Positions 45,801 through 54,800 of a stretch of DNA of 64,000 bases are shown here, piece by piece (position 1 is the stretch's first letter; each line of letters opens with the position of its first letter). Made by a program: the position numbers. Source of the DNA: Escherichia coli (lineage in GTDB: Bacteria > Pseudomonadota > Gammaproteobacteria > Enterobacterales > Enterobacteriaceae). The stretch lies in the NCBI RefSeq assembly GCF_044647545.1, contig NZ_CP172818.1; one strand, 5' to 3'.

Positions 45801-48800
45801 TTTGGGCGTATAAAGCAGCTGATTAATACAAATGCGCACACGCGCTTCTATGCCCTGCGAAATAGTATCGATACTGCGTTTAATGGCATGAAAATCATTC
45901 AGCAGGTCGGTAGCTTTGCGGAAAAAATAACGCCCGGACTCCGTTAACTCAATGCTGCGGGTACTGCGAGTGAACAGCACCACATCCAGCCCCGTCTCCA
46001 TACGTTTAATGGTGTAGCTAATGGCGGAAGTGGTTAAACCCAACTCTTCTGCGGCTTTACTGAAGCTGCCAAAACGCGCAGCGGTAGTAAATGCCAACAG
46101 ATTCTCTTCGGTAAAAATTGAGTTCATTGACCCGCTCCCGCCATTTTCGATTCTGAATTTCTCCAGCCATGACTGTAGAGGTATCCATTAAAGATGGATA
46201 ATCATTTTTGAATAACTTTTAATACCCGTCGCTTTTGGTCGTCGCTTCGCTTAATTTTTGTCCGCCGTATTCTGAAATTATCCCCACGCAGTTACCCGCC
46301 AGAAAACCCAGTAATGTCACCGTCCAGTTCATCCCGCTGGCAAAAAATAGCGTCATGCCGAGAAAGCCCCCGGGAATAAAAGACAGTAACCAGAAACGTC
46401 CTTGCCAGACCACCACCGCCGAGAAGGGTACAGTCATAATCACGCTCGCCCAGAACGTGGACAATCCACTCACCGAGGCCAGCCAACCGGCAGCCAGCGC
46501 GGCGAAAAACGCCCACACCATCCCGGAATAATTAACCGCCAGGCTTCTGATAAACCCCGATTTACCGCCGCCTGCGGCATAAAAACTGCAAAAGGCGACG
46601 AAGCCAATGGTTCCTAATAATTCCCATCCCTGAGAGAGCCCGACATGTGAAGACACTAACTGCCAAAGCCCTGCACAAATACCGACGGTGACACCCGTTG
46701 CCGTGAGTCCGTTCATCTTGTTCCCCTCTGGTTAGACATGGACGAAAGCTACTCTTACATGTGCAGACTATAGAGAAATAAAACCTGATTGAGTGAAAGG
46801 GTATCGGGTCAAAGAAACAAATATTGCACTACCGCACACTGCGAAAAGATTGTTGAACATCATTCAACAAAAAGGCGAAATACGGCGAATTAAATTTAAG
46901 CGGGTTCTTTTATCAGATTATCGTTGCTATTCGCAATTCATCGAAAACAGCCACAAAAACCAGGGGAATGTGAATGAGTATAAAAAATCTACCTGCCGAC
47001 TATTTATTGGCTGCACAACAGGGTGATATCGATAAAGAAAAACCTGCCTTGCGCTGGGTGTCGATATTAATACCTGCGATCGTCAGGGGAAAACGGCAAT
47101 TACGCTGGCAAGTTTATATCAGCAATATGCTTGCGTTCAGGCATTAATTGATGCCGGAGCGGATATTAATAAGCAAGATCATACTGTTTAAATCCTTTTT
47201 TAATTAGCTGTCTGAACGATGATTTAACGCTACTACGAATTATTTTACCGGCTAACCCGATCTTAATTGCGTAACCCGTTTTGGCGGTGTCGGCCTGACG
47301 CCTGCCTGTGAAAAAGGCCATTTAAGTATTGTAAAAGAGCTTTTGGCGCATACGGAAATTAACGTTAACCAGACCAACCATGTAGGCTGGACGCCGCTAC
47401 TGGAAGCGATTGTGCTTAATGATGGCGGTATTAAACAGCAGGCGATTGTCCAGTATTGCTGGAACATGGTGCCAGTCCGCATCTGACGGATAAATATGGC
47501 AAAACGCCGCTGGAACTGGCGCGGGAACGGGGCTTTGAAGAGATTGCGCAGTTACTGATTGCCGCAGGCGCATAACCCGGGAGGCTTGCTATCAACACAC
47601 CAGAAAGACGGTGTGTGTGGGCCGCAACTGCGGATGCGGGATTTTCTGGCGCAGCGGGGGCAAGGACAGGTTGAACAGGTCTTTGCCAGAGCGGTAAATA
47701 TCGCACTCCCGGCCGCCAGCAGTTGCTGACGCTGCTTTGTGAAGAGTACGACAATGCGCCAAACAGTTGTCGGTTGGCATCACTCACTTTGATGTCTTTC
47801 GGCATGGTGATAAGGTTCAGTTTGACGATCAAGGCATTACGGTTGGTCAACATCTTCATATAGAGATACGAGTCGTTGTCGGCGTTGGCTGTCCCCAACC
47901 TTGCAAATGACCGCTGTGAATTTTCACCTTATCGCCTGGCTACAGTGGCACGACATTATTCATCAGCACCTGGGGGAAAATGAAACCCTGTTTAATTATC
48001 GCGGCGATAATCCGTTTTATCAGGCGTTAGGTAAAGAATTACATATTAAACGACGGGCAGTTATTCAGGCCGTAAACGATAAACAAAATATCGCCTCAGC
48101 GGTCGCCAGTATGATGGGGTTAGGGATTGGCCTTACGCCATCAGCCGACGATTATTTAACAGGTCTGGCGCTTATTTTATTTATTCCCGGCATCCGGCGG
48201 AAAAATACAAAGAGGAATTTTATCTCGGTCTGCAACGCGGCAAAAATAATACCACATTATTAAGTGCCATAACGCTGGAAGCCGCATTACAACAACGCTG
48301 CCGGGAAAATATTCATCGTTTTATTCACAACATTATTTATGACATCCCTGGGAAAAACCCCGAACTCAGGCAATAGAAAAAATTAAACATATTGGCTCCA
48401 GTTCCGGCTGCGACATGCTGTATGGCATGGCCGATGGTTGTGCGCTGAGCCAAACCTACGGAGGGAATTATGTCAGTTAAAATAGTCATTAAACCGAATA
48501 CCTATTTTGATTCTGTCTCGCTGATGTCTATCTCCACGCGTGCAAATAAACTCGACGGCGTCGAGCAGGCATTTGTGGCGATGGCGACCGAAATGAATAA
48601 AGGCGTGCTGAAGAATTTAGGACTGCTGACGCCGGAGCTGGAGCAGGCGAAAAACGGCGACCTGATGATTGTCATCAATGGTAAATCGGGTGCGGACAAC
48701 GAGCAGTTGCTGGTGGAGATTGAAGAACTGTTCAACACCAAAGCGCAAAGCGGCTCGCACGAGGCGCGTTACGCCACTATTGGCAGCGCCAAAAAGCATA

Positions 48801-51800: not shown

Positions 51801-54800
51801 TCTGGCGTTGGTCATAACCCCATCACCCTCTGTAGCGGACATAACAACATGAAAGAGCTTGTGGTCGTTGCCAATGGTGGCAACAGCATTATAGAAAGAT
51901 AACGCCAGCCAGTCGATTGAGCATCAGGCGGAGGCGGTGAAAGCCGTGGCCGATACGGTGCTGGAAATGCTGGCTTCCGATTACGACGTGCTGACCCACG
52001 GTAACGGGCCGCAGGTCGGCTAAGATACGCCGTGCGGAGATTGCCCACGAGCGCGAAGGGCTGCCCTTAACGCCGCTGGCGAACTGTGTGGCAGATACGC
52101 AGGGCGGCATCGGCTATCTGATCCAACAGGCGCTGAATAACCGGCTGGCGCGTCACGGCGAGAAAAAAGCCGTCACCGTGGTAACTCAGGTGGAAGTGGA
52201 TAAAAACGATCCAGGTTTTGCCCATCCACCAAGCCCATTGGTGCATTCTTCAGTGAAAGCCAGCGTGACAAACTACAAAAGGCAAACCCTGACTGGTGTT
52301 TTGTTGAAGATGCCGGACGGGGCTATCGCCGCGTGGTCGCCTCGCCGGAACCGAAACGTATTGTCGGCACCACCATCGCGCGCTGGAGAGATCCAACAAG
52401 GTTTTGTCGTAATTGGCGCGGGCGGCGGTGGAATTCCGGTAGTGCGTACTGAAGCGGGGGATTACCAGAGCGTGGACGCGGTTATTGACAAAGATCTCTC
52501 TACCGCGCTGCTTGTCGCCGTGAAATTCACGCCGACATTCTGGTGATCACCACCGGCGTCGAAAAAGTCTGTATCCACTTTGGTAAACCGCAGCAGCAGG
52601 CGCTGGATCGGGTGGATATTGCCACCATGACTCGCTATATGCAGGAAGGGCATTTTCCGCCCGGCGGCGTGTTGCCAAAAATCATCGCCAGCCTGACGTT
52701 CCTGGAGCAGGGCGGCAAAGAAGTGATTATCACCACGCCGGAATGCCTGCCTGCGGCGCTGCGCGGTGAAACGGGCACCCATATTCTAAACGTAAGGACG
52801 TAGGATGAAAGAAAGCAATAGCCGCCGTGAATTTCTGAGCCAGAGCGGTAAGATGGTCACCGCCGCCGCGCTGTTCGGTACCTCTTTGCCGCTCGCCCAT
52901 GCGGCGGTAGCTGGCACCCTAAACTGCGAAGCGAACAACACCATGAAAATCACTGACCCGCATTACTATCTCGATAACATGCTGCTGGAAACCGGTTTTG
53001 ACTACGAAAACGGTGTGGCGGTGCAGACCCGCACGGCGCGCCAGACCGTGGAGATTCAGGACGGCAAAATTGTCGCCCTGCGCGAGAACAAGCAGCATCC
53101 GGACGCCACGCTGCCGCACTATGACGCTGGCGGTAAGTTGATGCTACCCACCACTCGCGACATGCATATTCATCTCGACAAAACCTTCTACGGCGGGCCG
53201 TGGCGCTCGCTCAATAGTCCGGCAGGCACCACTATCCAGGACATGATCAAGCTTGAGCAGAAAATGCTGCCGGATTACAACCGTATACGCAGGAGCGGGC
53301 GGAAAAACTGATCGATCTATTGCAGTCGAAAGGCACCACCATTGCCCGCAGCCACTGCAATATCGAACCGGTTTGCCGGCCTAAAAAATCTGCAAAATTT
53401 GCAGGCGGTGCTGGCGCGGCGTCGGGCCAGCTCGAGTGTGAAATCGTCGCCTTCCCGCAGCACGGTTTGCTGCTGTCGAGATCGGAACCCTTAATGCGCG
53501 AAGCGATGCAGGCGGGTGCGCATTACGTCGGCGGGCTGGACCCGACCAGTGTCGATGGCGCGATGGAAAGATCCCTCGACACCATGTTTCAGATTGCGCT
53601 GGACTACGACAAAGGTGTCGATATTCACCTGCACGAAACCACTCCATCAGGGCGTGGCAGCCATCAATTATATGGTTGAAACGGTAGAGAAAACGCCGCA
53701 ACTGAAAGGTAAGCTGACCATCAGCCACGCCTTTGCGCTGGCTACGCTCAACGAACAACAGGTCGATGCGCTCGGCGAATCGGATGGCGGCGCAGCAAAT
53801 TTCTATCGCCCTGACGGTGCCGATTGGCACGCTGCATATGCCGCTCAAACAGTTGCACGACAAAGGCGTAAAAGTGATCACTGGCACTGACAGCGTTATC
53901 GACCACTGGTCGCCTTATAGTATCGGCGACATGCTGGAAAAAGCCAATCTCTACGCGCAGCTCTATATTCGTCCTAACGAACAGAACCTCTCCCGTTCGC
54001 TGTTTCTAGCCACTGGCGATATATTGCCGCAATGAAAAAGGCGAGCGTGTATGGCCAAAAGCGCAGGATGATGCCAGCTTTGTGCTGGTGGACGCCTCCT
54101 GTTCCGCCGAGGCGGTGGCGCGTATCTCGCCGAGAACCGCAACGTTCCATAAAGGGCAACTGGTGTGGGGGAGTGTGGCAGGTTGATGCGCATTTGAAAC
54201 GCCTGCAACGGTGAATTGTAAAGAGATTTAAGCCCCAGGGAGTGGGGCAATCTGAATATGAGTGTGTCGGCAGAAATGGACATTATCTTTGAGGAATATG
54301 CCCTTATTGACGTTGTGTAGATAACTATTTGTCTACGTGAAAAGATCATCAGTTTTGCCGATTTTAGTCTTTTACAGATAGCAAATATCACACTTACAGG
54401 CGCTCGCCTTATGGGGAACGTTGCTGCTCTGTTTCATTCAGGCTCGCGGCATGTTGGGGCTGGATCGGGTGGTTTAAATATTGGCTATATTCAATGGACG
54501 CGTTTTGCCGCGATGACATATCAGGCGTTGCCAAATACACATAGCTAATCAGGAGTAAACACAATGAAGATCAAAGCTGTTGGTGCATATTCCGCTAAAC
54601 AACCACTTGAACCGATGGATATCACCCGGCGTGAACCGGGACCGAATGATGTCAAAATCGAAATCGCTTACTGTGGCGTTTGCCATTCCGATCTCCACCA
54701 GGTCCGTTCCGAGTGGGCGGGGACGGTTTACCCCTGCGTGCCGGGTCATGAAATTGTGGGGCGTGTGGTAGCCGTTGGTGATCAGGTAGAAAAATATGCG

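What the first reader, a model, noticed from the sequence alone, without database searches (positions are those of the whole stretch)
46974..54214. Clustered frameshifts through yahD-yahE-yahF-yahG-yahI-yahJ while flanking yahC and yahK are intact
Six consecutive genes each carry several frame changes (an ankyrin-repeat protein, an FdrA-like CoA-ligase-type protein, a DUF1116 partner, a carbamate-kinase-like protein and an amidohydrolase). If real, an entire putative catabolic cluster has been inactivated; from memory it is paralogous to the fdrA-ylbE-ylbF-arcC cluster linked to oxamate/carbamoyl-phosphate metabolism. The density and block-wise distribution of indels, with intact immediate neighbours, argue for local sequence error. 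Either way the cluster's function is poorly defined and would be interesting once a clean sequence is available.
Basis: partly seen in the sequence, partly recalled or inferred. Interest (0 to 1): 0.45.

Follow-up and report, generated by a model that had tools for sequence, protein, structure and literature searches.

The report
Sequence-error patches in E. coli yahD–yahJ
Six neighbouring E. coli genes look broken by about forty tiny insertions and deletions, but the damage has the pattern of poor-quality sequence in one public genome assembly, not of real gene loss.

Summary
Between 47038 and 54222 the window carries about 40 small indels (1-5 bp, 36 of 39 in-gene ones not multiples of 3) and about 75 substitutions seen in none of the four comparison genomes. 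They split yahD, yahE, yahF, yahG, yahI and yahJ into 2-4 reading frames each, while yahC and yahK are intact.

The damage is very unlikely to be biological.
- It is private to one public record. Six frameshift fragments each occur on a single NCBI contig of 4,499,902 bp. No indel-bearing match was found in 5,426 complete E. coli genomes, GTDB representatives or JGI metagenomes.
- The flanks are 100% identical to K-12 or to ST167-type strains over many kilobases, so there was no time for 1-2% neutral decay.
- The patch edges ignore gene borders: the last 430 bp of yahG and the yahH REP array are error-free.
- The indels are not concentrated in long homopolymers, and the inserted bases are not tandem duplications.
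- The same noise occurs in yahL-yahM, prpB-prpD and fdeC. The fdeC stretch is a garbled blend of fdeC and IS3 sequence.

With the indels removed, the genes are ordinary K-12-like yahDEFGHIJ, paralogous to the allFGH/allK oxamate carbamoyltransferase genes. Interest is low.

The parts
46219..46716 (-). yahC (DUF1097), intact upstream neighbour
   Evidence: Single-frame 165-aa tblastn match. The DNA has 0 mismatches to MS6198 through 46499.
46974..47575 (+). yahD (ankyrin-repeat protein), 4 single-base deletions
   Evidence: After frame correction there are 0 aa differences from K-12.
47615..48480 (+). yahE (AllH-family, formerly DUF2877), 7 indels
   Evidence: A fragment hits Pfam AllH.
48470..50009 (+). 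yahF (FdrA/AllF-like, CoA-ligase fold), 5 indels and 1 nonsense substitution
   Evidence: A fragment hits Pfam Ligase_CoA. The 183-aa N-terminal fragment occurs on only one public contig.
50009..51427 (+). yahG (AllG-family, formerly DUF1116), 7 indels and 1 nonsense substitution, all before 51000; the last 430 bp are clean
   Evidence: Fragments hit Pfam AllG.
51429..51812 (.). yahH / REP-element array, identical to K-12, with no errors
   Evidence: 0 mismatches and 0 indels in 51000-51893 against K-12. The array is absent from MS6198.
51849..52795 (+). yahI (carbamate-kinase family), 10 indels and 1 nonsense substitution
52805..54186 (+). yahJ (amidohydrolase with a twin-arginine-type N-terminus), 6 indels. 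The final frameshift moves the stop to 54214.
   Evidence: A fragment hits Pfam Amidohydro_3. The 168-aa N-terminal fragment occurs on only one public contig.
54564..55613 (+). yahK (NADPH-dependent aldehyde reductase), intact downstream neighbour, DNA identical to K-12
47038..50999 (.). noisy patch A1 (about 0.6% indels plus about 1% private substitutions)
51894..54222 (.). noisy patch A2
   Evidence: The best of 5,426 genomes is 97.4% identical.
55844..57264 (.). noisy patch B (yahL, yahM and the spacer between them), same error type
61235..64000 (.). noisy patch C. The prpB stop codon is replaced by a run of 17 C, an A3 run is expanded to A11, prpC has 5 indels and prpD has 3.
   Evidence: The best of 5,426 genomes is 97.7% identical.
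25772..28227. graded noisy patch in fdeC. The 3-bp gap at 25772 is shared with K-12, so the noise may begin at 25917. The stretch 26512-28227 is a garbled blend of fdeC-like and IS3-like sequence.

Best explanation
The frameshifts exist in the deposited sequence but not, in all likelihood, in the organism. The window comes from a single public E. coli assembly, a 4,499,902-bp contig. Most of it is base-perfect, but it contains patches of poorly corrected consensus with about 1% substitutions and 0.6% small, deletion-biased indels. Two of these patches (47038-50999 and 51894-54222) fall on the yahDEFGHIJ operon and break six genes. Shown: the noise is private to this record; it lies on an otherwise K-12-like or natural allele background; it ignores gene borders; it recurs in unrelated genes of the same window; and one patch is a consensus blend of two structural variants (K-12-type IS3 and ST167-type fdeC). 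That blend can only arise from mixed or heterogeneous input data, or from merging sequences. Inferred: the yah patches are stretches that escaped polishing or had very low effective depth, for example long-read gap fill between accurate short-read contigs, possibly in a mixed K-12 plus clinical-strain sample. Underneath the noise the locus is the ordinary yahDEFGHIJ cluster: an ankyrin protein, an AllH/AllF/AllG-like three-subunit carbamoyltransferase paralog, a carbamate kinase paralog and an amidohydrolase. It presumably catabolises an unidentified ureido or carbamoyl compound, by analogy with oxalurate cleavage by AllFGH and ATP formation by AllK.
For: 1. Privacy. Six ORF fragments created by the frameshifts (YahF-N, YahJ-N, read-through PrpB, PrpC-N and two PrpD pieces) are each found on exactly one contig, from NCBI only and not from Logan or ENA, among about 15 billion proteins. 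The best of 5,426 complete E. coli genomes is only 97.8%, 97.4% and 97.7% identical over the three patches. An indel-bearing 46-mer has 0 hits in GTDB representatives and in JGI metagenomes.
2. No time for decay. Window 1-13000 is identical to K-12 except for one IS1 copy. 13368-24346 is 100.000% identical to MS6198. 30000-46950 is 100.0% identical to ST167-type strains. yahK and 57300-60700 have 0 differences from K-12.
3. Patch edges. 51000-51893, inside the operon, has 0 events where about 16 are expected. The patches start or stop inside yahG, yahI and yahM.
4. Spectrum. In yahE/F/G the substitutions are spread evenly over codon positions (10:9:11) and only 10 of 30 are synonymous. In the natural-allele neighbours pdeL, yahB and yahC, 67 of 78 are synonymous. 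The indel-to-substitution ratio is about 0.5-0.6. Of the single-base deletions, 60% fall in runs of 2 bases or fewer. The AAACC and GAGAG insertions are not tandem duplications, and several apparent adjacent-base swaps occur.
5. After removing the indels the six proteins are 96-100% identical to K-12.
6. Other artefacts in the same record. In the fdeC patch, identity falls from 100% to about 66% and returns abruptly. Its garbled part shares colinear similarity with IS3: 69.7 bits against at most 28.3 in 200 control segments, and 17 shared 11-mers against a mean of 1.3. It lies exactly where K-12 has IS3. A C17 run replaces the prpB stop codon.
Against: No reads, quality values or assembly metadata could be inspected, so the artefact is inferred from comparative evidence only. 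The source record could not be named. Why these particular stretches stayed noisy while neighbouring ones are perfect is not explained. The indels do not sit at natural polymorphic sites, so simple blending of two haplotypes does not account for the yah patches. All affected genes are dispensable, so real inactivation would be tolerated.
Confidence: 0.88

Rival explanations
1. Genuine pseudogenisation. A K-12-like lineage lost the need for the yahD-J pathway, and for yahL/M and prpCD, and the genes decayed by accumulated frameshifts.
For: All the hit genes are non-essential and accessory. Truncated YahF and YahJ fragments occur sporadically in other E. coli assemblies (clusters). The indels are deletion-biased, 43 deletions to 16 insertions, as in real bacterial pseudogenes.
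Against: The flanks show zero differences from K-12 over more than 17 kb, including cryptic-prophage and intergenic DNA. The patches show about 0.8-1% private substitutions, so about 30 neutral changes are expected in the flanks and none is seen. The clean 894-bp stretch inside the operon is incompatible with operon-wide relaxation. The indel-to-substitution ratio of about 0.5 and the lack of concentration in long homopolymers are far from natural spectra. No second genome shares the indels.
Confidence: 0.05
2. Real localised hypermutation or laboratory mutagenesis. Examples are error-prone repair or replication tracts, or integration of error-prone PCR products, acting on a few kilobase-sized patches of a K-12-derived strain.
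For: The changes are patchy, recent (on an otherwise identical background) and random with respect to codon position.
Against: I know of no bacterial process that produces 1-2% change with 0.6% multi-base indels over 2-4 kb tracts (my own knowledge, not tested here). The fdeC patch (about 66% identity, 37% shorter, blended with IS3) and the C17 run cannot be produced by mutagenesis of a single template. There is no engineering scar or foreign sequence at the patch edges.
Confidence: 0.03
3. The yah indels come specifically from consensus blending of two co-assembled haplotypes that differ by SNPs (a mixed K-12 plus second-strain sample), rather than from low-depth or unpolished sequence.
For: The window alternates between K-12-identical and ST167-identical segments. 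The fdeC patch is a demonstrable blend of two structural haplotypes. The prpB-prpC anomaly sits where K-12 and other strains differ by a 397-bp REP insertion.
Against: Within the yah patches the window carries one haplotype's alleles almost exclusively, and the extra changes match none of the references. The indels are not enriched near sites where K-12 differs from REL606, BHUCD02, TKEC21-59 or MS6198 when variants are called directly between references. The apparent enrichment was a projection artefact. Clean segments are as divergent between the haplotypes as noisy ones.
Confidence: 0.04

Closest known systems
E. coli K-12 yahDEFGHIJ cluster (b0318-b0324 region, between yahC and yahK)
   Same: It has the same genes in the same order and orientation, the same REP array (yahH), and 96-100% amino-acid identity once the indels are removed.
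   Different: It carries about 40 small indels, 3 nonsense substitutions and about 75 private substitutions found in none of the comparison genomes. yahD and yahI-J carry non-K-12 natural alleles.
allF-allG-allH-allK (fdrA-ylbE-ylbF-ybcF): oxamate carbamoyltransferase plus catabolic carbamate kinase of anaerobic allantoin degradation (PMC11326118, PMC9843812)
   Same: The K-12 proteins are paralogous: YahF-AllF 38% identity, YahG-AllG 45%, YahE-AllH 25%, YahI-AllK 38%. Pfam AllG and AllH domains are present in window fragments.
   Different: The gene order differs (H-F-G-K-like rather than F-G-H-K). The first ~60 residues of YahG align to the C-terminus of AllF. The yah cluster adds an ankyrin protein and an amidohydrolase. 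Its substrate is unknown and no activity has been shown for it.
Genuine multi-gene pseudogene tracts in host-restricted enterobacteria (for example Shigella)
   Same: Consecutive dispensable genes are each disrupted by frameshifts.
   Different: Real tracts are shared by a lineage, show comparable neutral divergence in their flanks, and usually involve IS elements, large deletions and few frameshifts per gene. This comparison rests on my own knowledge; none of these features holds here.
Unpolished or low-depth consensus patches and mixed-sample chimeras in hybrid or long-read bacterial assemblies
   Same: The noise is kilobase-sized, deletion-biased and substitution-rich, lies between base-perfect stretches, is private to one record, and includes garbled consensus at a structural difference between two strains.
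   Different: The technology and pipeline are unknown. The indels are less homopolymer-bound than typical nanopore consensus errors, and only weakly enriched near GATC sites.

Membership tests
yahDEFGHIJ operon of E. coli | Synteny: located between yahC (divergent strand) and yahK, with the order D-E-F-G-H-I-J | tested here: met
   Colinear alignment to K-12, TKEC21-59, MS6198, BHUCD02 and REL606.
yahDEFGHIJ operon of E. coli | Domain content: ankyrin, AllH (DUF2877), FdrA/CoA-ligase, AllG (DUF1116), carbamate kinase, amidohydrolase | tested here: met
   Pfam AllH, Ligase_CoA, AllG and Amidohydro_3 hit window fragments. The YahD and YahI fragments are too short for Pfam but match the K-12 proteins by tblastn.
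yahDEFGHIJ operon of E. coli | Intact open reading frames | tested here: not met
   There are 36 frame-breaking indels and 3 nonsense substitutions. The longest ORF is 206 aa.
AllFGH-type oxamate carbamoyltransferase with AllK carbamate kinase | Homologs of all three subunits plus a carbamate kinase, encoded together | tested here: met
   blastp of the K-12 Yah proteins against K-12 AllF, AllG, AllH and AllK gave E-values of 6e-101, 2e-119, 1e-9 and 2e-56.
AllFGH-type oxamate carbamoyltransferase with AllK carbamate kinase | Oxalurate-to-oxamate plus carbamoyl-phosphate activity; membership of the allantoin regulon | not testable with these tools
   Activity has been shown only for AllFGH (PMC11326118). 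That paper does not mention the yah genes.
Lineage-fixed natural pseudogenes | The same lesions present in independent genomes of the lineage | tested here: not met
   The fragments occur on 1 contig only. The best hits are 97.4-97.8% identical in 5,426 genomes. There are 0 exact hits in GTDB representatives or metagenomes.
Lineage-fixed natural pseudogenes | Neutral divergence in the flanks commensurate with that in the decayed genes | tested here: not met
   The flanks have 0 differences from K-12 or MS6198 over many kilobases, against about 1% private substitutions inside the patches.
Lineage-fixed natural pseudogenes | Decay follows the unit released from selection (whole gene or operon) | tested here: not met
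   51000-51893, inside the operon, is error-free. Patch edges fall inside yahG, yahI and yahM.
Sequencing or assembly artefact | Error-like spectrum: random codon position, high indel-to-substitution ratio, indels that are not slippage products | tested here: met
Sequencing or assembly artefact | Other demonstrably artefactual sequence in the same record | tested here: met
   The fdeC/IS3 blended stretch and the C17 and A11 runs at the prpB stop.
Sequencing or assembly artefact | Reads or quality values contradict the consensus | not testable with these tools
   No reads or metadata are available, and the record could not be retrieved.

The most novel reading that the evidence does not exclude
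The indels are real. In that case a K-12-like E. coli would carry kilobase-sized tracts (yahD-G, yahI-J, yahL-M, prpC-D) that underwent very recent, extremely dense localised mutagenesis, about 1% substitutions plus 0.6% small indels, on an otherwise unchanged chromosome. That would point to an undescribed tract-wise hypermutation process in bacteria.
Probability: 0.03. Interest if true: 0.7.

Novelty: not a real feature. Interest (0 to 1): 0.08.

Why it matters
The main value is as a quality flag. About 20% of this 64-kb window (roughly 13 kb in five patches) is noisy, and the record appears to mix K-12-type and ST167-type sequence. Pseudogene calls, allele calls or recombination inferences drawn from this assembly would therefore be unreliable. 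The biology under the noise is ordinary but still incompletely understood. YahE, YahF and YahG are paralogs of the recently identified oxamate carbamoyltransferase AllH, AllF and AllG. With YahI (carbamate kinase) and YahJ (amidohydrolase) they probably form a catabolic route for an unknown carbamoyl or ureido compound. That question is better pursued in K-12, where the genes are intact.

Tried and rejected
- Naming the source record failed. The look-up of encoding contigs returned nothing for three fragment proteins, and a literature search for the contig length found nothing relevant.
- E. coli B or a K-12 x B hybrid as the source was rejected. REL606 is no closer to the window than K-12.
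- A nanopore methylation-motif signature was inconclusive. Enrichment near GATC is only weak (10 of 59 indels within 6 nt against 7% expected) and there is none near CCWGG.
- Haplotype blending at SNPs as the cause of the yah indels was rejected. The apparent enrichment disappeared when variants were called directly between references. Noisy and clean segments are equally divergent between K-12 and MS6198.
- A coincidence between the start of the noise and the ST167/K-12 recombination junction was rejected. ST167-type alleles continue into yahD, to about 47509, beyond the first indel at 47038.
- Gene conversion from the paralogous all cluster was rejected on reasoning alone. The paralogs share only 25-45% protein identity, which could not yield 1-5 bp indels on a K-12-identical background.
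- The two allantoin-pathway papers do not discuss the yah paralogs.
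Full report
**What is there.** The window is an E. coli chromosomal segment running from CP4-6/argF through ecp, fdeC, rcl, ykg, bet, pdeL, yahB-yahO and prpR to prpD. The flagged interval is the yahD-yahE-yahF-yahG-(yahH)-yahI-yahJ cluster, which lies between yahC and yahK as in K-12.

I aligned the window to K-12 MG1655, TKEC21-59 and MS6198.
- There are 40-50 indels of 1-5 bp between 47038 and 54222, and none in yahC or yahK.
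- Against K-12 the counts are yahD 4, yahE 7, yahF 5, yahG 7, yahI 10 and yahJ 6. Of the 39 in-gene indels, 36 break the frame, and there are three nonsense substitutions.
- tblastn of the K-12 proteins finds five of the six proteins (YahD, E, F, G, J) scattered over 2-4 frames; YahI gives a single low-identity (58%) HSP that runs across its frame changes. YahC, YahK, YahN, YahO and PrpR are full length in one frame.

**The background sequence.** The window is a mosaic of segments that are base-identical to known lineages.
- 1-13000 equals K-12, apart from one IS1 copy.
- 13368-24346 equals the ST167-type strain MS6198, with 0 mismatches in 10,979 bp.
- 30000-46950 is 100.0% identical to a group of ST167-type strains.
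- yahK, and 57300-60700 (yahN, yahO, prpR and the 5' part of prpB), have no differences from K-12.
- In contrast, the stretches 47038-50999, 51894-54222, 55844-57264 and 61235-64000 have no close match in 5,426 complete genomes. The best identities are 97.8%, 97.4% and 97.7%.
- Those stretches carry substitutions absent from all four reference genomes examined, and every one of the indels.

**Why this is not natural decay.**
1. *Time.* In yahE, yahF and yahG the allele is K-12's, overlaid with 30 substitutions. These fall evenly on the three codon positions (10:9:11) and only 10 are synonymous. There are also 19 indels. In the natural-allele neighbours pdeL, yahB and yahC, 67 of 78 differences are synonymous. 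A lineage that had accumulated about 0.8% neutral change should show tens of changes in the more than 17 kb of flanking K-12-identical DNA, which includes cryptic-prophage and intergenic sequence. It shows none.
2. *Geometry.* Inside the operon, 51000-51893 (the last 430 bp of yahG plus the yahH REP array) has no event where about 16 are expected. The patch edges lie inside yahG, yahI and yahM.
3. *Spectrum.* The indel-to-substitution ratio is about 0.5-0.6. Sixty per cent of single-base deletions lie in runs of 2 bases or fewer, close to the base-composition background. The insertions AAACC and GAGAG are not tandem duplications. Several changes look like adjacent-base swaps or short local scrambles.
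4. *Privacy.* Six ORF fragments created by the frameshifts occur on exactly one contig among about 15 billion proteins. That contig is from NCBI, is 4,499,902 bp long, and the fragments are not in the SRA-derived Logan assemblies. An indel-bearing 46-mer is absent from GTDB representatives and JGI metagenomes.
5. *No other lesions.* With the indels removed, the six proteins are 96-100% identical to K-12.

**Independent evidence that the record contains consensus artefacts.**
- In fdeC, identity to MS6198 is perfect through residue 341. Small deletions then appear, and the sequence collapses to about 66% nucleotide identity. It is also about 37% shorter than the reference. Perfect identity resumes abruptly at 28228.
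- The garbled stretch occupies, to within 4-15 bp at each end, the interval where K-12 has IS3 in place of the fdeC 3' part.
- It carries colinear similarity to both fdeC and IS3. The IS3 match scores 69.7 bits against at most 28.3 in 200 control segments, and shares 17 11-mers against a mean of 1.3.
- A sequence that blends two alternative structures cannot exist in one genome. It indicates a consensus built from K-12-type and ST167-type templates. This also offers an explanation for the K-12/ST167 mosaic of the window; that part is inference.
- At the prpB-prpC junction, another K-12-versus-other structural difference, the prpB stop codon is replaced by C17 and an A3 run becomes A11.

**Mechanism of the yah noise.** I tested whether the yah indels arise from blending of two SNP-differing haplotypes. 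They do not. The window carries essentially one haplotype's alleles there. The indels are not enriched at natural variant sites when variants are called directly between references; an apparent enrichment was a projection artefact. The most likely mechanism, which is inferred, is unpolished or very low-depth consensus, such as long-read gap fill between accurate contigs. The technology cannot be identified from the sequence. The errors are deletion-biased (43 deletions to 16 insertions), only weakly associated with GATC, and not restricted to long homopolymers.

**The locus beneath the noise.**
- RefSeq annotation of the syntenic regions and Pfam hits of window fragments give the following: YahD ankyrin, YahE AllH family, YahF FdrA/AllF-like CoA-ligase fold, YahG AllG family, YahI carbamate kinase family, YahJ amidohydrolase.
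- YahJ's N-terminus (SRREFL followed by a hydrophobic stretch and AHA) looks like a twin-arginine signal. This is inference from the known consensus.
- AllFGH is the oxamate carbamoyltransferase of anaerobic allantoin degradation (PMC11326118), and AllK/YbcF is the catabolic carbamate kinase (PMC9843812). Neither paper treats the yah paralogs.
- By analogy, the intact cluster probably cleaves an unknown ureido compound to carbamoyl phosphate and harvests ATP. This is not tested here.

**Verdict.** The feature is an artefact of one public assembly, so interest is low. The residual chance that the changes are real (natural decay or tract-wise hypermutation) is a few per cent. Read mapping or PCR resequencing of the strain would settle it.

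Noticed in passing
window 24897-28227: fdeC (inverse autotransporter adhesin) degrades progressively. It is perfect to aa 341, then shows small deletions, and 26512-28227 is only about 66% identical and about 37% shorter than the reference. That stretch carries both fdeC-like and IS3-like colinear signal, and lies exactly where K-12 has IS3 replacing the fdeC 3' part. It looks like a consensus blend of two structural haplotypes.
   Followed up: yes
window 61235-61290: The prpB stop codon and 7 nt are replaced by a run of 17 C, and an A3 run upstream of prpC is expanded to A11. prpB therefore reads through to a 318-aa ORF. K-12 has a 397-bp REP insertion at this spot that the window lacks.
   Followed up: partly
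window 55844-57264 and 61290-64000: The same kind of small indels and private substitutions break yahL, yahM, prpC and prpD. yahN, yahO, prpR and most of prpB, which lie in between, are identical to K-12.
   Followed up: yes
window 1-13000 / 13368-~47500 / ~47500-60700: Segments identical to K-12 (including CP4-6 and argF), to ST167-type strains, and to K-12 again alternate along the window. No complete genome among 5,426 has this combination. It may be natural recombination within the ST10 complex, or haplotype switching in a mixed-sample assembly.
   Followed up: partly
window 1170-1939: The IS1 copy next to argF differs by about 4% (30 mismatches) from the IS1B that K-12 has at the same site, although the flanks are identical to K-12. 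This could be IS gene conversion or a repeat mis-assigned by the assembler.
   Followed up: no
window 24346: Relative to MS6198 the window lacks 6.3 kb (a flavin oxidoreductase, a hydrolase, two LysR regulators and two aldo/keto reductases), as K-12 does, although the flanking sequence is the ST167-type allele.
   Followed up: no
K-12 proteins (L003/L008), corresponding to window 50009-50190: The first ~60 residues of YahG align to the C-terminal ~40 residues of AllF (FdrA). The subunit boundary therefore differs between the two paralogous carbamoyltransferase clusters.
   Followed up: no
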